Source: a virus. From it: 64,000 nt of DNA. A model generated the notes under the pieces. It worked only from the letters and a program-made list of their open reading frames with translations, ran no database searches and had not been told where the DNA came from. Position numbers and translations under genes: made by a program. Where the stretch lies: IMG/VR virus record IMGVR_UViG_3300030116_004952, positions 12,530-76,529 of that record; one strand, given 5' to 3'. Shown here piece by piece: positions 42,387 through 49,104 of this stretch (positions within the stretch are counted from its first letter, which is position 1; every line of letters begins with the position of its first letter).

Positions 42387-42866
42387 TCAAAGTTCTTCGC
42401 TAGTTTCAGCAGAAAGGAGGCTATCTACTGAACCATCCCAAGTTCCAGCCTTATATTGACTGTTAAGGGAGTTTCGTGTTTTCTTAACCCAAGAAGCAGC
42501 AAATTCTTCTGCGGAGTCATATTGACCGCCACCAGACTTTGCGTGTTTAACGGAGATTGCTCCGATAATTGGGTCATGGTTGTAATAAGCCGTAATTGCT
42601 TCTTCAACAACACCACAAATTCTGTCAGTAGCAACACGGACTGCGGCAGGAATACTGCTCTTTTGTCCTCGACGGAACGGAGTTCCATCTCTTCCCTTCA
42701 ATAGAGCCTTAAGTGCGTTATGTGCCGCATCTCGCTCATTAGGGTTTTCTGTTCCTACTTGAAGGTGCAACTGCACGATTTGTCGCAATCCACCGTCAAG
42801 GGCGGAATCTGCTTCCAAATACTCTTCAACTTCAATCTTCAAACTGTTCCAATTCATATCATCCAT
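42387..42866 (-). CDS. Paralog A of a three-member uncharacterised family
   Basis: RRGQKSSIPA...KHAKSGG...WDGS; TATA-like CCTTATATA upstream; likely start MDDMNW. Confidence 0.7.
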   Translation of the reverse strand: MDDMNWNSLKIEVEEYLEADSALDGGLRQIVQLHLQVGTENPNERDAAHNALKALLKGRDGTPFRRGQKSSIPAAVRVATDRICGVVEEAITAYYNHDPIIGAISVKHAKSGGGQYDSAEEFAASWVKKTRNSLNSQYKAGTWDGSVDSLLSAETSEEL

Positions 42867-42911
42867 ATGTATCAACTTCTGCCCGTAGGCGAAGTTCCAT
42901 AGATTGACCAT

Positions 42912-43600: not shown

Positions 43601-43685
43601 GAACCTTAAGTAGGGTATATTCATACTATGAACAGTCGTCGAGCATTGGTCAAAAACCAAACAAAACGACAGGAGATGAAAAATT

Positions 43686-44228
43686 ATGACGGAACTATCA
43701 GTAGCGAAGTTTGAAGAACGATGTGAGCCAATTGTTGCACATATGGCTCAACATGATATTGGAGCATTTGCGCCAATTATCGAAGGAACAATGAAACAAG
43801 GTATGAACAAAGACCTTACCGATGAACAACGTGGAAACCTTTGGGATTCTATCCGTTCTATGGTAAAAAACGTCGAAGGCTTGAAACTTCGACATGGGCG
43901 ACGTTCAAGCCTTCCAGCAGAAATCATGGTAAATGTCCAATCTGTTGCGAATCAGGTAAGGACTGCCTGTGTTGCACTTATTGAGAACTGCCCTGTATTG
44001 CTTGAGGTTATTTTGCCTCATGGTAAAACTGGTGGAAATTACACTCAAGAGTCTTTTGCGGACTATTTCGCAGATAAGGCAGAAACCAACCTAATCTCGG
44101 CTTATCGGGATAAGGATGGTCGTCGTTGGGATGGAACTCTCAATGATGACGGCATGACTGGTATGGTTGCTCCAGTTAAGGCCGATTCAAACAATGATGA
44201 TTCTTCGGAGGTTTCTGAAGAAGAATGA
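43686..44228 (+). CDS. Paralog B
   Basis: RHGRRSSLPA...PHGKTGG...WDGTL; AGGAG RBS. Confidence 0.75.
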   Translation: MTELSVAKFEERCEPIVAHMAQHDIGAFAPIIEGTMKQGMNKDLTDEQRGNLWDSIRSMVKNVEGLKLRHGRRSSLPAEIMVNVQSVANQVRTACVALIENCPVLLEVILPHGKTGGNYTQESFADYFADKAETNLISAYRDKDGRRWDGTLNDDGMTGMVAPVKADSNNDDSSEVSEEE

Positions 44229-44441
44229 TTGTTGTTTTTGAATGAATTATTGGTCAATGCTCGACGGCCACCTCATTCTTTTCGCTAAGGGGGGATAATC
44301 ACATTAGAAGCCACTTCAAGAACGCCAGATGTTTCTTTGAAGGATAACTGATGAAATGATGTGAGAATCCCCCCTTATGCAGTTTTTTTGTTGCTTAAGA
44401 TTGCACAAAGCGCAACCATATGGTAGGATTCTTTGAATTAT

Positions 44442-44453
44442 ACCTTATATACC
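44442..44453 (+). promoter_or_regulatory. Archaeal TATA-like promoter ACCTTA(T/A)ATACC (representative copy)
   Basis: Similar boxes near 43604, 45052, 45753 and 47856 (+), and near 47060, 47802 and 42910 (-), each a short distance upstream of a cassette gene. Confidence 0.6.
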
Positions 44454-44486
44454 TATTATAGATACATAGGACAAGGAGGTAATCCA

Positions 44487-44864
44487 ATGTCTGAAACATA
44501 CATAGTAATAGATACACAAGACAATGAGCGAAGCATTGGTTCTTATTCACGTAAGAATCATGCCGAAGAAGATAGAATGCACCTAATGAAAACGCATTTT
44601 GAGCGAACTATGGGGGAAATGGAAAAATTAGCCAAATCACCCATCAAGCGAGCGATGAAGGTCGTTAAGGTGGATTTAGACCACCCTGATGTTACGGAAC
44701 ATGACCGTGATTTTGCAATCATGCGAAATCAAACTTTTGTCAAGGTTAAGTTGGTGAATGAACTTCACTTCGAGTATAAGAAGTTGAAAGCATCAATTTC
44801 ACCAGAAAATCCACGATACATCATCAAGACCGTTGAACATCGTGATTCTCGATTTTATTCGTGA
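44487..44864 (+). CDS. Cassette hypothetical protein
   Basis: GGAGG RBS then MSETY; own promoter and terminator. Confidence 0.65.
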   Translation: MSETYIVIDTQDNERSIGSYSRKNHAEEDRMHLMKTHFERTMGEMEKLAKSPIKRAMKVVKVDLDHPDVTEHDRDFAIMRNQTFVKVKLVNELHFEYKKLKASISPENPRYIIKTVEHRDSRFYS

Positions 44865-44924
44865 ATTGGTCTGATTGACTCGTTTTGACAGGTTCGACCT
44901 GTGTTGATGCAAAAGCATCTTGCC

Positions 44925-44963
44925 TCCCCTCGCATGGTTCAGGCCATGCGGGGGGACTTTTTT
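44925..44963 (+). terminator. Hairpin + U-tract
   Basis: TCCCCTCGCATGG-ttcagg-CCATGCGGGGGGA-CTTTTTT. Confidence 0.7.
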
Positions 44964-45102
44964 CATTTTTAGCCCCTCCCATCCCTAGCGAATAATATAA
45001 CAAAAATCATTTATAACGCTACAACCATATGGTATGGGACTTTGGAGTTATACCTTAAATACCTACTAAATTGAGTATGAATACCCTGAATGGAGGGATT
45101 AC

Positions 45103-45621
45103 ATGGAAGAAGAAGTAAGAACAACCGAAGAAGAAATGAACCGAAAAGCCACAATGGAAGATGTTGAGGCATTTGCGAAGGAGTTTGGTGTGAGTAAAAC
45201 AGGATGCACCTATAACAAGTTCACAATTGCCCTAGTAACCATGATTAACGTGCTATACAACCATACTTTGGCTAGTAGTAGCATAAATCTTGAATGCCTC
45301 AAAATCCTAGTTGGTGAACCTATGTATGTTATGGATGAACTACTTAAGGTTAAGAAGCAATATGAAAAGGACAAGAAGATTTGGGATAACCGTGTTGAAG
45401 GAGAACGTAAATCCCGAATCCAAGCGGAAAAATCCTTAAGTGAGAAACAAAGACAAATTGACGGCTTTCTTACCAATGACGTAATTAATAACGTCATTGT
45501 TTCTGGTATCAGAAAGGATTTAGATAGGTGTGTTCGTGATGCAGACGAAAGTTTTGAATTTATGACGAGTTTGAAACACGCTTCATATGAAAGCCAGCAA
45601 ACATTTCAAAAATTCTTTTGA
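45103..45621 (+). CDS. Cassette hypothetical coiled-coil protein
   Basis: GGAGG RBS; own promoter and terminator. Confidence 0.65.
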   Translation: MEEEVRTTEEEMNRKATMEDVEAFAKEFGVSKTGCTYNKFTIALVTMINVLYNHTLASSSINLECLKILVGEPMYVMDELLKVKKQYEKDKKIWDNRVEGERKSRIQAEKSLSEKQRQIDGFLTNDVINNVIVSGIRKDLDRCVRDADESFEFMTSLKHASYESQQTFQKFF

Positions 45622-45658
45622 TTGAGAAGGTTTGAATAGATAGTCTGGGCAGTTATAT

Positions 45659-45698
45659 GGGGGATAGAGGGCTAAACGCCCTTTATCCCCCTCTTTTT
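45659..45698 (+). terminator. Hairpin + U-tract
   Basis: GGGGGATAGAGGGC-taaac-GCCCTTTATCCCCC-TCTTTTT. Confidence 0.7.
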
Positions 45699-45823
45699 GA
45701 GTTGTAACTTAAAAACACCGTTACAACCATATGGTTGGCTTTGCCAACCTCATTAAATACCTATTGCACCTTCTATGAACGGTTTATGGTGCATAGTGAA
45801 TCAAACACTATGGAGGAATCAAA

Positions 45824-46330
45824 ATGAACGAAGAAAAATGGACAACAAAAAGAGAACTAATTGTTTCTTATGTGAACAACAACGACGTTGGAGCATTCAA
45901 CGTAATTGTTATGGGAACTGTTGAAGCAATTGACAAAACACAGCCCGATGACCGAACACCTTTGATTGAATCACTACGTTCAATCTTTAAGACAATTGAC
46001 CCAAATAAGGTAAGTGGTGCTTTTCGCACAGGAAAAGCCTCTTCACTTCCCGCTAGTGTCATTTCAGTTCTAGGTGGCATTATGTCGGATGTTCGAGCAA
46101 ATCTTCAAGATTTGTTCAATGCTCCGCATATGTCTCAACTTTTGACACCGCACGGTAAATCAAAGGATATGGGTCATTTGTTCGTCAATGATGAACAATA
46201 TGCAGATTATGAAGCAAAGCGAATTGAAAACCGATTGACTCGATGGTATCGAGAAAAGATTTGGGATGGCACGCTAGAAGGACTACAAACTCTTTCTTTC
46301 CCTTCAATGGAGGTTGAAGAGGAAGAATGA
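45824..46330 (+). CDS. Paralog C
   Basis: RTGKASSLPA...PHGKSKD...WDGTL; GGAGG RBS. Confidence 0.75.
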   Translation: MNEEKWTTKRELIVSYVNNNDVGAFNVIVMGTVEAIDKTQPDDRTPLIESLRSIFKTIDPNKVSGAFRTGKASSLPASVISVLGGIMSDVRANLQDLFNAPHMSQLLTPHGKSKDMGHLFVNDEQYADYEAKRIENRLTRWYREKIWDGTLEGLQTLSFPSMEVEEEE

Positions 46331-46374
46331 TTAATTGATTGATTATGCACCATAGGCCACCTTTTATTCTTTAA

Positions 46375-46445
46375 TGGGCAATAGGGCAATGAAAAGTAAA
46401 ATGAAAATTAATTCCGACTTTTCGCCCTATTGCCCTTGTTTTTTT
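46375..46445 (+). terminator. Extended hairpin + U-tract
   Basis: GGGCAATAGGGC...GAAAAGT...ACTTTTC-GCCCTATTGCCC-TTGTTTTTTT. Confidence 0.65.
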
Positions 46446-46560
46446 GTCGAGGTTGAAATGGCAAAGCCATTACAACCATATGGTTGATAATCTTTGTATT
46501 ATAAAACCTTGAAAAGGAAAACCGAATTTAATCGGTTTTTTAGTTGAATTGGGGTTCAAT

Positions 46561-47040
46561 TCAACGGTCTGGGTGGTATACCATACTTGATTCAAGTTGT
46601 TCAATTTTGCCCTGCGTATCGAGGCTTTCTTGAACTAAGCGAGGTCGAGTATGTAGTCTAATGCCTAATATTCGGCACAATCCCTCAATGTCTCGATATT
46701 GCTTACGGACTTCCGACATGAACCATTTTCCTGTAAAGTAGCGGTAATGACCGTTGCTCATGTTGGGGTTCTTGTTTAGTTCTTCCTGCCATAAATCATC
46801 ACATTCAAAGTCATGTTCTGTAAATCTGACTTGATGCGTCTCTTTTTCGGTTTCTAGCCATGTTTGAAACTTTGTCATTACGGTCTGCAATACAATGTAA
46901 AGTTGCGTTGTTGTTCTTGATTGGCTGTTTTTCAAAGAAAGGAGGAAATGAATGAACGTCAAAGCGTTCTTAATTCTATCTTCCATTCTGTATAGGCTTC
47001 TTGTGTCTTTAGGTTCTAATATCATCATAGTTTTACCCAT
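46561..47040 (-). CDS. Cassette hypothetical protein (inverted orientation)
   Basis: ACCTTAATATA promoter on - strand beside site 47084; AAAACCGA/TCGGTTTT hairpin downstream. Confidence 0.6.
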   Translation of the reverse strand: MGKTMMILEPKDTRSLYRMEDRIKNALTFIHFLLSLKNSQSRTTTQLYIVLQTVMTKFQTWLETEKETHQVRFTEHDFECDDLWQEELNKNPNMSNGHYRYFTGKWFMSEVRKQYRDIEGLCRILGIRLHTRPRLVQESLDTQGKIEQLESSMVYHPDR

Positions 47041-47284
47041 TCTTAGGTTAATTATTGATTATATTAAGGTTGCATCAAATGTGCAACCATATGGTATGGC
47101 TTTGTCATACCTTGACCTAAAAAAATTGAGGGCATCCACCCAACAGAACCTACTAAGGCATACGTTTTTACTTAATTAGGCATTAACTAGTATTGCCGTA
47201 TTTTCTTAACGTGTTGCGTGTTCGTGAACTGCGGGTTTCAGCCCCTAATGGTTTGTTATGGCCAATTAATCGCCATTGGAGTTC

Positions 47285-47326
47285 AAAAAAAGCGATGGGG
47301 GAGGATTGCCTCTTTCCTCCCCCATC
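47285..47326 (-). terminator. Hairpin + U-tract
   Basis: GATGGGGAGGA...TCCTCCCCCATC followed by T7 on the - strand. Confidence 0.6.
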
Positions 47327-47518
47327 ATTATTCCCTGCAATTAACCAATTTTCTATGGTTATTGCTCAAATTGCCGAGAGGCACAATTCAAACGGGCGGA
47401 AGGGGATTACAGTCTAAACATGACTTTAATGTGTATTTATGTTTAGAGTCTCTACAAATCTTAGTTACTGCTTGTCTGAAAGCAGGTATTTCATTGATTA
47501 AGGTTGGTTCGTTTTCTT

Positions 47519-47782
47519 TCATTCTTCTTCACTTCCTGTATAATCAAAAGCCAATTCTGGGTGTAGGATGATGTGTTCAAAATAATTACAGAAAAACGAT
47601 ACCTGCACTTCACGCTTTCCTATGTTTGTTTGAATATTGTATGTTGAACGGTTTGGCATAGAATCTAAATAAGTATAAACATCTTCTAATTGTTGATGTG
47701 ATTCAAACTTAAAGTATTGATTTACGCTCACACTATAATCATCATAAATTGTGTTTCCTAATTCCACTCTATCGGGCTTCAT
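47519..47782 (-). CDS. Cassette hypothetical protein (inverted), coupled to a ~44-aa downstream ORF
   Basis: Ends GSEEE* with GAAGAAGAATGA overlap into MKENEPT...CLDCNPLPPV*. Confidence 0.55.
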   Translation of the reverse strand: MKPDRVELGNTIYDDYSVSVNQYFKFESHQQLEDVYTYLDSMPNRSTYNIQTNIGKREVQVSFFCNYFEHIILHPELAFDYTGSEEE

Positions 47783-47897
47783 GTCCTAAGAATCACAAAT
47801 GGGTATATAGTAGGGTTGTCAAAGACAACCATATGGTAATGCACTTTGGGACAGAACCTTAAATATACCCTATGAAACCTATAATCGGTGAAAACCA

Positions 47898-48188
47898 ATG
47901 AAACGAATACCCGAAGAAATATATGAACAATTGGAGAAAATAAAGAAACACGTTGAAGAAGCATTCATGGCTTTAGAACTAGATAGGGGCATTATGCTTA
48001 ATGTCTTAGTTCATGGTCGTAGTCGTCATATGATAAACAATCAACGTGAATATGCAGAAAACCGAGCGAGATATGTTGTTCACAATCTCAAAAAGGCTTT
48101 TTGGGAGAATCGTTGGAATGGTGAATGGGAAGAAGGCGGAAAAGGTATTATTATCGCTCCCGAAGGTTATACGCTGGAGGAAGAATGA
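47898..48188 (+). CDS. Cassette hypothetical protein
   Basis: GGTGA RBS; ends LEEE*, coupled to the next ORF. Confidence 0.6.
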   Translation: MKRIPEEIYEQLEKIKKHVEEAFMALELDRGIMLNVLVHGRSRHMINNQREYAENRARYVVHNLKKAFWENRWNGEWEEGGKGIIIAPEGYTLEEE

Positions 48189-48523
48189 TGGTATCAAGAA
48201 AACATTTTGAAGCATTTGCTCAATGGGTTGCAGATGAAGAATTAATGGGAACTGAAGAATCAATGGTTGAAAGATTTTGTAACGTCTTGAAATCAATGAA
48301 TCCTCGATTTGACAAAGGGCGATTTATTGCCCGTTGTGATGAATTGCAGGGTTTTGAGCGTGGAAAGTTTGCTTTTCCTATCTCTTCTCAAAATATGCCC
48401 GATTTAGTCCTTCATAACCTTCTTGTGTATCTTTCACAGGCTAAAACACAAAAAGAGCGAATAGGCATTCAAGAATGCATTGACGCTACTTTGAAGGTTT
48501 TTCCTCATTTGAAGGAAAATTGA
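48185..48523 (+). CDS. Small phage-type hypothetical protein
   Basis: Likely start MMVSRKHF; NPRFDKGRF motif. Confidence 0.6.
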   Translation: MMVSRKHFEAFAQWVADEELMGTEESMVERFCNVLKSMNPRFDKGRFIARCDELQGFERGKFAFPISSQNMPDLVLHNLLVYLSQAKTQKERIGIQECIDATLKVFPHLKEN

Positions 48524-49104
48524 GCCTTTAACCCTCAAACGTGCGTGTCCTAAGCATGACCATAAAAACTGCTTGGCTTCGGCCACTTTTTTAGCCCCTA
48601 CCCTCCCTGTGAATTAACAACCTATTATCGAAAGAACATATTGTTTAGTTAATTCAACAACCATATGGTATTGTTAATTTATGCGTTATGCATTGGGGTA
48701 TTATGCTATTATATGTAATCTATATAGATATTCTTAGAAATATATAGATATGACTCTTATTAAGTCGATTATAGCCAAAATAATAGCCCGTTAATCAATA
48801 CACCATAAATAAATTAAAACGTCGTTATGCACCATGCATTGGCATATTAACGCCCTATTATTCTAAATAAAAATAATACACAACCATATGGCTTTGTTCC
48901 AATTTTTATTTTTATATATGAACAATGCATCATTAAGCAATTAAGCTTCAATAATGCAATATTAATCACTTTAGCAGATATAATCAAGCCTAAACGACCT
49001 ATTTAGCATCAATGCTTTGAATTAGTTTGCAAGATATGGTTAAAATGTTAAACCTAACAATGCTTATAATATAGACTGAACTACCTTACCTTGAGGCAAG
49101 ATAT

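What the first reader, a model, noticed from the sequence alone, without database searches (positions are those of the whole stretch)
43635..46358. Two paralogous mRNAs are clamped end-to-end by 5'UTR-3'UTR stems, with competing local hairpins at the RBS
Seen: for gene 43686-44228, GTCGTCGAGCATTGGTCAA (43635-43653) pairs fully with TTGGTCAATGCTCGACGGC (44250-44268): 19 bp including 3 G.U. For gene 45824-46330, GGTTTATGGTGCATAGTGAATCAA (45781-45804) pairs with TTGATTGATTATGCACCATAGGCC (46335-46358): 23 of 24 positions including 3 G.U. The arm sequences differ between paralogs while pairing is kept, and the wobbles point to RNA-level selection. Both 5' arms follow CTATGAAC near the predicted TSS, and both 3' arms end in GGCCACCT. 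Each 5' arm can instead fold locally (GTCGT/ACGAC plus TTGGT/ACCAA; CATAGTG/CACTATG) right against the Shine-Dalgarno. Established analogy: 5'-3' fold-back control of hok-type and AapA toxin mRNAs. Inference: a translational timing switch, a stabilising panhandle, or a processing/circularisation substrate.
Basis: partly seen in the sequence, partly recalled or inferred. Interest (0 to 1): 0.85.

Follow-up and report, generated by a model that had tools for sequence, protein, structure and literature searches.

The report
Archaeal-virus mRNAs clamped end to end
In a marine archaeal virus (a magrovirus), two related early genes make messenger RNAs whose first and last untranslated bases pair into a 20-35 bp stem; compensating mutations keep this stem in about 20 related viruses, it most likely shields the message's ends, and I found no earlier description of such a clamp for archaea or their viruses.

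Summary
43635-43653 pairs with 44250-44268 (16 Watson-Crick + 3 G.U). 45781-45804 pairs with 46335-46358 (20 WC + 3 G.U + 1 mismatch). No non-cognate or random flank pair in the window matches either.

The window is a group-B magrovirus-like genome (split PolB, RNR, chaperonin, tRNA-Leu/Arg), so its promoters are archaeal. Each 5' arm starts 22-23 nt after a TATA-like box, at the expected transcription start. Each 3' arm starts at or just after the stop codon.

The gene family has three copies per virus. In about 22 related viral contigs the two non-helicase-adjacent copies nearly always keep a cognate 5'UTR-3'UTR helix. The arm sequences differ completely between lineages. Mismatches are mostly G.U on the sense strand, which indicates selection on the RNA.

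The third copy has only a local 5' hairpin. The helix does not occlude the Shine-Dalgarno sequence. It has no bulge-helix-bulge motif, and the viruses encode no RNase III.

Best reading: a panhandle that keeps the 5' end, and the coding-sequence boundary, double-stranded. This would be a stabiliser, with a local 5' hairpin as the nascent form. Function remains inferred. It is a new variant of known 5'/3'-UTR pairing (hbs, hok, icaR).

The parts
43604..43612 (+). TATA-like box (CCTTAAGTA) of the P1 promoter
   Evidence: In an alignment of 15 family genes anchored on the first paired nucleotide, a CCTTA(A/T)(A/G)TA-type box sits at about -31..-23 and CTTTG at about -41. The spacing to the arm is 21-23 nt.
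43626..43634 (+). CTATGAAC plus A: promoter-proximal/initiator region; predicted TSS at 43634-43635
   Evidence: The same octamer precedes the P2 arm. The TSS is inferred from archaeal TATA-to-start spacing and was not measured.
43635..43653 (+). P1 5' arm (outer helix H1)
   Evidence: 19/19 positions pair with 44250-44268. The helix is present in the MFE and centroid of the full-length RNA. Compensatory C-G to U-A and G-C to A-U changes occur in orthologues.
43662..43672 (+). P1 5' strand of inner helix H2; abuts the Shine-Dalgarno sequence AGGAGA (43671-43676)
   Evidence: Cofold. In orthologue groups A2 and B it is replaced by different sequences that still pair with the region just after the stop codon.
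43686..44228 (+). P1 gene (180 aa, unknown function, acidic C-terminus)
   Evidence: No Pfam or PHROG family. All-helical model with no PDB fold match. The CDS is unusually structured, z -5.8.
44229..44240 (+). P1 3' strand of inner helix H2, starting right after the stop codon
44250..44268 (+). P1 3' arm (outer helix H1)
44269..44282 (+). C-rich tail (CACC) and short T tract after the 3' arm
   Evidence: The CACC/ACC/CC(C) tail is conserved after the helix in 15 genes. The T tract is a possible archaeal termination site (inference).
44284..44390 (+). Long hairpin followed by a T7 run (terminator-like module downstream of P1)
   Evidence: -38 kcal/mol, z -3.5. Inverted repeat I4. Compensatory changes are visible by eye between the window and L006/L008 sequences.
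45723..45738 (+). ACAACCATATGGTTGG palindrome upstream of the P2 promoter (probable operator)
   Evidence: 17 matches clustered at 44.4-48.9 kb against 1.5 expected.
45751..45759 (+). TATA-like box (CATTAAATA) of the P2 promoter
   Evidence: 21 nt separate it from the first paired G at 45781.
45781..45804 (+). P2 5' arm
   Evidence: 23/24 positions pair with 46335-46358. The helix is in the MFE and centroid. The L015/L138 orthologue changes about 10 positions on both strands and keeps the pairing.
45792..45812 (+). Local alternative hairpin CATAGTG/CACTATG next to the SD sequence GGAGGA (45812-45817)
   Evidence: -10.5 kcal/mol, z -2.8. Weaker in L017 and absent in L138.
45824..46330 (+). P2 gene (168 aa, paralogue of P1)
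46335..46358 (+). P2 3' arm, 4 nt after the stop codon (in orthologue L017 the helix includes the stop codon)
46359..46372 (+). ACC tail and T tracts
46376..46445 (+). Long hairpin plus T7 run (terminator-like module downstream of P2)
   Evidence: -29.4 kcal/mol, z -5.2.
42387..42866 (-). P3, the third paralogue; no 5'-3' clamp, only a local 5'UTR hairpin (about 42868-42890) and a 3' hairpin
   Evidence: Cognate duplex of only -21 kcal/mol. A local GC-rich 5' hairpin is predicted in P3-like genes of 5 of 6 lineages. The helicase-adjacent copies in 8 further viruses score -7 to -17.

Best explanation
These are conserved RNA panhandles. In this magrovirus-like archaeal virus and its relatives, the mRNAs of two of the three paralogues of an unknown ~170-aa protein family are built as a stem plus a giant loop.

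Transcription starts 22-23 nt after a TATA-like box. The first or second transcribed base opens a 19-35 bp helix. Its partner strand is the 3'UTR, beginning at or within a few bases of the stop codon. The Shine-Dalgarno sequence and the coding sequence form the loop.

While the RNA is still nascent, the 5' arm usually folds into a small local 5'-terminal hairpin. Once the 3' arm is made, the much more stable long-range helix takes over.

The most likely purpose is end protection. A 5' terminus that is never single-stranded resists 5'-end-dependent decay (RNase J / aCPSF2-type 5'-3' exonucleases in archaea). The helix at the coding-sequence boundary, followed by a terminator-like hairpin, would stop 3'-5' exonucleases. 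The result would be long-lived early messages.

Shown here: the helices, their co-evolution, their strand specificity, and their position relative to the promoter motif and the stop codon. Inferred: the transcript ends, the order of folding, and the stabilising effect.
For: Helices far beyond chance and kept in full-length MFE and centroid folds.

Covariation within orthologues: 98% of cells paired against 22-60% for slid controls, 3 pairs with double changes, and 0/500 shuffles reaching the observed score.

Across lineages the arms are unrelated in sequence, but the cognate partner is the best in 11 of 14 rows and 13 of 14 columns. 21 of 23 further P1/P2-like genes in 15 more contigs score -28 to -51 kcal/mol.

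The sense duplex is more stable than the antisense one in 13 of 14 genes, with 34 G.U among 328 pairs. G.U far outnumbers A/C mismatches.

The first paired base lies at a fixed 22-23 nt from the TATA-like box in 15 genes. The helix starts 0-2 nt into or after the stop codon in 12 of 14 genes.

The third paralogue carries a local 5' hairpin instead, so a structured 5' end is the feature shared by the whole family. The 5' arms self-fold in about 11 of 14 genes.

The P1 and P2 coding sequences are more structured than nine other genes of the virus and the third paralogue P3 (z -5.8 and -3.7 against +0.6 to -3.1). SD/AUG accessibility is not changed by the 3' arm.

Precedent: the 14-bp 5'/3'-UTR pairing of B. 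subtilis hbs mRNA limits RNase Y cleavage in the 5' leader, the cleavage that gives RNase J1 access (PMC5737220; PMC7821165).
Against: No transcript ends, half-lives or structure probing exist for any of these uncultivated viruses.

End protection alone does not explain two things: why the 3' arm begins right at the stop codon in most genes, and why a C-rich tail and a recurrent terminal motif (GCUUCRRGGGG / CCCCYYGWWGC) are conserved.

Other early genes of the same virus (44487-44864, 45103-45621) do without such a clamp.

If transcripts run on to the downstream hairpin plus T7, the 3' arm is internal and protects only the 5' end.

The host assignment rests on gene content matching published group-B magroviruses, not on a direct host link.
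Confidence: 0.45

Rival explanations
1. Closed-loop translation. The helix places the stop codon next to the Shine-Dalgarno/start region of the same mRNA, so terminating ribosomes or small subunits re-initiate on it. This would be a base-paired analogue of the eukaryotic cap-poly(A) closed loop.
For: The helix starts 0-2 nt into or after the stop codon in 12 of 14 genes, and its 5' strand ends 12-25 nt before the AUG, just 5' of the SD. The same geometry holds in most of the 21 further genes. The SD stays accessible. Haloarchaeal 5' and 3' UTRs must act together for translational control (PMC2636863).
Against: A terminating ribosome must melt the inner half of the helix. No such mechanism is documented in archaea. 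In several lineages the helix starts 11-16 nt after the stop (L183, L184, L190). Compact viral UTRs could give the same geometry with no function.
Confidence: 0.18
2. A fold-back translational timing switch of the hok/AapA1 kind. The full-length folded mRNA is inert and is activated by 3' processing, with metastable 5' hairpins in the nascent chain.
For: 5'-3' pairing plus alternative local 5' hairpins in most lineages. This formally resembles the full-length, translation-impeding fold and the metastable structures described for aapA1 (PMC5416894).
Against: Predicted SD and AUG accessibility is the same with and without the 3'UTR in 8 of 9 genes. The helix ends 5' of the SD. The products are 160-180 aa hydrophilic proteins rather than small membrane toxins. 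No antisense promoter or antisense RNA is evident. The local hairpin is absent in P1 group B.
Confidence: 0.1
3. A processing substrate. A double-strand-specific or helix-end-specific nuclease cuts the stem to release a defined mRNA, as RNase III does on rRNA and phage T7 transcripts, or the stem directs excision and circularisation as archaeal BHB stems do.
For: The near-perfect helices are 19-28 bp long, a length that RNase III substrates typically have (established knowledge). The sequences flanking the helix are conserved: CTATGAAC on the 5' side and a C-rich tail on the 3' side.
Against: No helix has two 3-nt bulges 4 bp apart, so none carries a BHB motif. No RNase III domain (PF14622, PF00636) was found in five virus genomes, four of them at least 91% complete. 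Archaea generally lack RNase III (established knowledge; not tested here for the host). The 5' arm starts at the predicted TSS, so there may be no 5' leader to remove.
Confidence: 0.1
4. A protein-binding platform. The paired termini, with their recurrent GC clamp plus tandem U.U/U.G and C-rich tail, are recognised by a viral or host protein, perhaps the encoded protein itself as autoregulation.
For: A recurrent terminal motif persists although the helix interiors diverge. The element is restricted to one protein family.
Against: The window's own arms lack the GCUUC motif. The third paralogue has no clamp. The protein shows no recognisable RNA-binding fold or family. Conservation of the terminal bases could reflect promoter/initiator constraints instead.
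Confidence: 0.1
5. DNA-level inverted repeats that flank gene cassettes, acting as recombination or mobility sites, with no RNA role.
For: Inverted repeats bracket single genes in a region of small, shuffled genes.
Against: Mismatches are overwhelmingly G.U on the sense strand. The arms differ between paralogues and between lineages while pairing is kept. The arms are positioned relative to the TATA-like box and the stop codon. No target-site duplications and no recombinase were seen nearby.
Confidence: 0.03

Closest known systems
B. subtilis hbs mRNA 5'/3'-UTR interaction (Braun, Durand and Condon 2017, PMC5737220)
   Same: Long-range base pairing between the 5'UTR and 3'UTR of one mRNA, which limits ribonuclease attack on the 5' leader. 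The SD is left free.
   Different: The hbs pairing is 14 bp, internal to a structured leader, in a bacterium, and reported as not conserved in close relatives (PMC7821165). Here the helix is 19-35 bp, flush with the predicted TSS and the stop codon, in archaeal viruses, and kept by covariation across about 22 viral contigs.
hok/Sok and AapA1/IsoA1 type I toxin mRNAs (fold-back 5'-3' pairing, metastable 5' hairpins; PMC5416894, PMC6733600)
   Same: The full-length mRNA is closed by 5'-3' pairing. Alternative local 5' hairpins exist in the nascent RNA.
   Different: There is no small toxin ORF, no antisense RNA and no predicted SD sequestration. Nothing indicates activation by 3' processing.
S. 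aureus icaR 3'UTR anti-SD (UCCCC) pairing with RNase III cleavage (PMC7821165)
   Same: A 3'UTR pairs with its own 5'UTR.
   Different: The icaR pairing covers the ribosome-binding site and recruits RNase III. Here the helix stops 5' of the SD and no RNase III is encoded by the viruses.
Functional 5'/3'-UTR interplay in haloarchaeal translational control (Brenneis and Soppa 2009, PMC2636863)
   Same: An archaeal setting in which both UTRs are needed together.
   Different: Going by its abstract (the body was not read), that study reports a genetic requirement for both UTRs and does not report a base-paired helix. Here the helix is explicit and covaries, but no functional data exist.
Archaeal rRNA processing stems with bulge-helix-bulge motifs, and RNA-virus genome panhandles (influenza, bunyaviruses)
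   Same: Pairing of sequences that flank a long RNA. Conserved terminal bases.
   Different: There is no BHB motif. The RNAs are mRNAs of a dsDNA virus, not replicating genomes or rRNA precursors.

Membership tests
hok/Sok-type or AapA/IsoA-type type I toxin-antitoxin mRNA | Small (about 30-50 aa) hydrophobic toxin ORF | tested here: not met
   The ORFs are 180 and 168 aa, hydrophilic, with an acidic tail and an all-helical soluble-looking model.
hok/Sok-type or AapA/IsoA-type type I toxin-antitoxin mRNA | The full-length fold sequesters the SD and makes the mRNA translationally inert | tested here: not met
   P(unpaired) of the SD and AUG is essentially equal with and without the 3'UTR in 8 of 9 genes. 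This is a prediction only.
hok/Sok-type or AapA/IsoA-type type I toxin-antitoxin mRNA | 5'-3' long-distance pairing of the full-length mRNA | tested here: met
hok/Sok-type or AapA/IsoA-type type I toxin-antitoxin mRNA | Cis-encoded antisense RNA antitoxin | tested here: inconclusive
   The sigma-70-type scan is at background level and is not suited to archaeal promoters. No Rfam family matched. No expression data exist.
icaR-type 3'UTR anti-SD regulation | A 3'UTR motif pairs with the ribosome-binding site | tested here: not met
   The 5' strand of the helix ends 12-25 nt before the AUG, 5' of the SD. Only in window P1 does the inner helix touch the first two bases of the SD.
RNase III processing site | About 20 bp or more of dsRNA | tested here: met
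   19-28 near-contiguous pairs.
RNase III processing site | RNase III available in the virus or the host | tested here: inconclusive
   It is absent from 5 virus genomes. No host (Poseidoniales) genome could be reached with the tools.
Archaeal BHB (bulge-helix-bulge) excision/circularisation stem | Two 3-nt bulges on opposite strands separated by a 4-bp helix | tested here: not met
   The predicted helices show only 1x1, 2x2 or 3x2 internal loops, or single-base bulges.
hbs-like protective 5'/3'-UTR interaction | Base pairing between the 5' leader and 3'UTR of the same mRNA, with the SD left free | tested here: met
hbs-like protective 5'/3'-UTR interaction | The pairing reduces ribonuclease cleavage or decay | not testable with these tools
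   This needs half-life or cleavage assays.
Group-B magrovirus (context of the element) | Split family-B DNA polymerase, ribonucleotide reductase, chaperonin, tRNA-Leu and tRNA-Arg | tested here: met
   compared with PMC5434244. Whether the chaperonin is the GroEL type was not resolved. No phylogeny was run.

The most novel reading that the evidence does not exclude
The clamp is more than a stabiliser. By pairing the stop-codon region with the leader just 5' of the Shine-Dalgarno sequence, it would create a base-paired closed loop. That loop would hand terminating ribosomes back to the start of the same message, or would be read by a factor that recognises the conserved paired termini. It would be a prokaryotic or archaeal counterpart of eukaryotic mRNA circularisation, evolved by a virus.
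Probability: 0.15. Interest if true: 0.85.

Novelty: new variant of a known kind. Interest (0 to 1): 0.62.

Why it matters
Pairing between the two UTRs of one mRNA is documented for a handful of bacterial genes and has only been inferred genetically in haloarchaea. Here it appears as a long helix that covaries across a whole gene family. The helix is tied to the predicted transcription start and to the stop codon, in the abundant viruses of uncultivated marine group II archaea.

The element gives a sequence-defined, mutable object (disrupt the arms, then compensate them) for asking how archaeal mRNA ends are protected. It also lets one ask whether 5'-3' communication affects translation in a domain where mRNA decay and translational control are poorly understood.

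It also marks the unknown ~170-aa family as specially regulated early genes of these viruses.

Tried and rejected
1. Bacterial sigma-70 promoter and terminator scan. Promoter-like hits were at background level (23 against 24.9 expected). I dropped it once the archaeal-virus context was clear.

2. Rfam. No family covers the arms.

3. Similarity search against GenBank phages. No DNA match; the helicase is only about 34% identical to phage helicases.

4. The pattern GGCCACC..ATTCTTT across viral contigs. 117+ hits, none with a matching 5' arm: chance matches only.

The single distant members P0040 and P0032 found nothing. The helicase-profile detour solved this.

7. Function of the protein. Pfam, PHROGs, a PDB profile search, an AlphaFold model with Foldseek, and the ESM Atlas gave nothing usable.

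8. Reaching a host (Poseidoniales) genome to test for RNase III. The ligase, the chaperonin and two tRNA patterns found no MGII record.

9. A tRNA-acceptor-like reading of the 'helix + ACC' end, with the 3' arm as an RNase P external guide or a CCA-adding substrate. I rejected it. The next base is never A in the orthologues examined. Other lineages have CC/CCC tails without a discriminator pattern. There is no T-loop mimic, and the virus's own tRNA genes do not encode CCA.

10. An anti-SD role for the CCACC tail. I rejected it by inspection of the sequences: it would leave a central A/A mismatch against GGAGG.
Full report
**Observation**

Both pairings are in the sequence exactly as described.
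- 43635-43653 against 44250-44268: 19 of 19 positions pair (16 Watson-Crick, 3 G.U).
- 45781-45804 against 46335-46358: 23 of 24 positions pair (20 WC, 3 G.U, one G/G).
- CTATGAAC precedes both 5' arms, and GGCCACC closes both 3' arms.

The pairing is well beyond chance.
- In 2000 random pairs of 70-nt stretches from the window, the best helix averages 10 pairs and never exceeds 17. The two genes give 21 and 23.
- The cognate duplex energies are -38.9 and -47.5 kcal/mol. All 2401 non-cognate combinations of 5' and 3' flanks of 50 window genes are weaker (mean -15.6, minimum -37.2).
- Folding the complete predicted transcripts (650 and 594 nt) keeps both panhandles in the MFE and in the centroid.
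- P1 has a further inner helix, 43662-43672 with 44229-44240, that begins right after the stop codon.

**Context**

The window lies in a 76.5-kb IMG/VR virus record. It encodes:
- a family-B DNA polymerase split into two genes,
- an ATP-dependent ligase,
- a Cpn60-family chaperonin,
- a class II-like ribonucleotide reductase,
- a terminase,
- tRNA-Leu and tRNA-Arg.

This is the published signature of group-B magroviruses of marine group II archaea (PMC5434244). I checked the gene content myself. Related contigs come from Tara and other marine samples.

Promoters should therefore be of the TATA-box type. When 15 family genes from different viruses are aligned on the first paired base of the 5' arm, a CCTTA(A/T)(A/G)TA-like box falls at about -31 to -23 and a CTTTG motif at about -41. 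The spacing from the box to the arm is 21-23 nt. That is the usual archaeal distance from TATA box to start site (established knowledge). So the helix most likely begins at +1 or +2 of the transcript. This is an inference. No 5' ends were measured.

**The gene family**

P1 (43686-44228), P2 (45824-46330) and P3 (42387-42866, minus strand) are paralogues.
- The family has at least 150 clusters at 50% identity in public metagenomes.
- It has no Pfam or PHROG assignment.
- The model is all-helical, pLDDT 70.
- There is no fold, PDB-profile or Atlas match.
- Its function is unknown.

**Comparative evidence**

*Close orthologues.* In orthologous contigs with 65-99% protein identity, the P1 helix is kept with compensatory changes (C-G to U-A, G-C to A-U). 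The inner helix is replaced by three unrelated sequence versions, each of which pairs leader with post-stop sequence. On the 10-sequence alignment:
- 98% of cells pair, against 22-60% when the partner is slid by 1-3 columns.
- None of 500 shuffles reaches the observed covariation score.

For P2, the most divergent orthologue changes about ten consecutive positions on both strands and still pairs. One orthologue has an 8-nt deletion in the 3'UTR and re-pairs in a new register that includes the stop codon.

I therefore anchored on the neighbouring helicase and scanned the flanks with a family HMM. The same rule holds in about 22 viral contigs whose helicases are 47-98% identical.
- The copy next to the helicase (P3-like) has no 5'/3' complementarity: -7 to -17 kcal/mol in 8 of 8 further viruses.
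- The other copies have it. All eleven P1/P2-like genes in the first set score -27 to -47 kcal/mol. In the second set, 21 of 23 score -28 to -51 kcal/mol.

The arm sequences are unrelated between lineages. In a 14 x 14 matrix the cognate 3'UTR is the best partner in 11 rows and 13 columns, and the exceptions are close relatives.

*Strand specificity.* The duplex is more stable on the sense strand than on the antisense strand in 13 of 14 genes. G.U pairs greatly outnumber A/C mismatches. DNA-level inverted repeats would show no such bias. This is RNA-level selection.

**Geometry**

- The 3' strand of the helix begins 0-2 nt from the first base of the stop codon in 12 of 14 genes. It lies within a few bases of the stop in most of the others.
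- The 5' strand ends 12-25 nt before the AUG, just 5' of the Shine-Dalgarno sequence.

The whole of both UTRs is therefore used for pairing. The SD plus coding sequence form the loop.

Many lineages share a terminal motif: 5' GCUUCRRGGGG paired with CCCCYYGWWGC, a tandem U.U or U.G near the end, and a C-rich 3' tail.

Downstream of each window gene lies a long hairpin followed by seven T residues: -38 and -29 kcal/mol, z -3.5 and -5.2. The real 3' end may be there, or at the short T tract right after the arm. This is unresolved.

**Local hairpins**

In a broader form they recur. In about 11 of 14 genes the 5' arm can fold on itself or with the adjacent leader into a 5'-terminal hairpin of -8 to -15 kcal/mol. 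The hairpin is missing in P1 group B, and the z-scores are modest.

P3-like genes have only a local GC-rich 5' hairpin. The feature common to the whole family is thus a structured 5' terminus. P1 and P2 types add the long-range clamp.

**Tests of the proposed mechanisms**

*Translational inertness of the hok/AapA1 or icaR kind.* This is not supported. Predicted unpaired probabilities of the SD and AUG are the same with and without the 3'UTR in 8 of 9 genes. Window P1 drops only from 0.84 to 0.66. The products are not small toxins.

*Processing or circularisation.* None of the helices has a bulge-helix-bulge motif. No RNase III domain occurs in five virus genomes. I could not reach a host genome to test it there.

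*Stabilisation.* This fits best for four reasons.
- The helix is flush with the predicted 5' end.
- A local hairpin covers the 5' end before the 3' arm exists.
- The third paralogue uses a simple 5' hairpin.
- The P1 and P2 coding regions are themselves unusually structured (z -5.8 and -3.7, against +0.6 to -3.1 for nine other genes of the virus and P3).

The closest experimentally studied parallel is the hbs mRNA of B. subtilis. There a 14-bp 5'/3'-UTR pairing restrains RNase Y cleavage in the 5' leader, the cleavage that gives RNase J1 access (PMC5737220; review PMC7821165).

Stabilisation does not explain the strict adjacency to the stop codon or the conserved terminal motif. These keep two ideas alive as minority readings: a closed-loop (re-initiation) role, or a factor that binds the paired termini. 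Haloarchaeal work showing that 5' and 3' UTRs must act together in translational control (PMC2636863) makes the first idea worth testing.

**Verdict**

The feature is real, RNA-level and strongly conserved. It works like known bacterial 5'/3'-UTR interactions but is not a member of the hok, AapA1 or icaR systems. I found no mention of such an element in the two magrovirus papers whose text I searched for promoter, UTR or hairpin terms, nor in the literature searches. I class it as a new variant of a known kind. Its function is inferred, not shown.

Noticed in passing
window 44412-48895: The palindrome ACAACCATATGGT occurs 17 times (up to 2 mismatches) against 1.5 expected. All strong copies sit about 15-25 nt upstream of the CTTTG/TATA-like promoter motifs of the small early genes. 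It also follows the family genes in related viruses (e.g. L177, L180, L183). It looks like an operator for a transcription factor at early promoters rather than a cassette boundary. The P1 promoter lacks it.
   Followed up: partly
window 44284-44390 and 46376-46445: There are long hairpins (about 95 and 60 nt) followed by T7 runs downstream of P1 and P2, with z -3.5 and -5.2. The P1 hairpin shows compensatory changes in orthologues, and group-B orthologues carry a different, even longer hairpin at the same place. These could be terminators or separate structured RNAs.
   Followed up: partly
window 43686-44228 and 45824-46330: The coding regions of P1 and P2 are much more structured than other genes of the virus (z -5.8 and -3.7), and their GC content is higher (0.40-0.43 against about 0.33). 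RNAalifold finds several internal hairpins with compensatory changes, for example a 9-bp GAAGGCUUG/CAAGCCUUC stem inside the conserved RRSSLPA region.
   Followed up: partly
protein P0013 (metagenomic homologue): This is a chimeric family member. Its N-terminal ~45 residues resemble P3 and the rest resembles P1, which suggests recombination between paralogues.
   Followed up: no
window 42868-42890 (minus strand) and P3-like genes in L138, L139, L142, L145: The helicase-adjacent paralogue carries a local 5'UTR hairpin (GCC..GGC / GCCCC..GGGG) whose stem sequence changes between lineages while the pairing is kept.
   Followed up: partly
G003:C1:7883-8116 and G004:C1:11238-11471 (loci L172, L173): A fourth, weak match to the family HMM contains two in-frame TGA codons in two related complete virus genomes. 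It could be a decayed copy or a recoded gene.
   Followed up: no
window 44470-44486 with 44918-44926, and 45090-45100 with 45683-45692: The SD regions of the neighbouring early genes (44487-44864, 45103-45621) are complementary to C-rich strands of their own terminator hairpins (GGAGGUAA/UUGCCUCC). The cognate duplex scores are only marginal (3.7% and 4.9% of non-cognate pairs are as good), so this is probably chance between G-rich SD sequences and C-rich terminators.
   Followed up: partly
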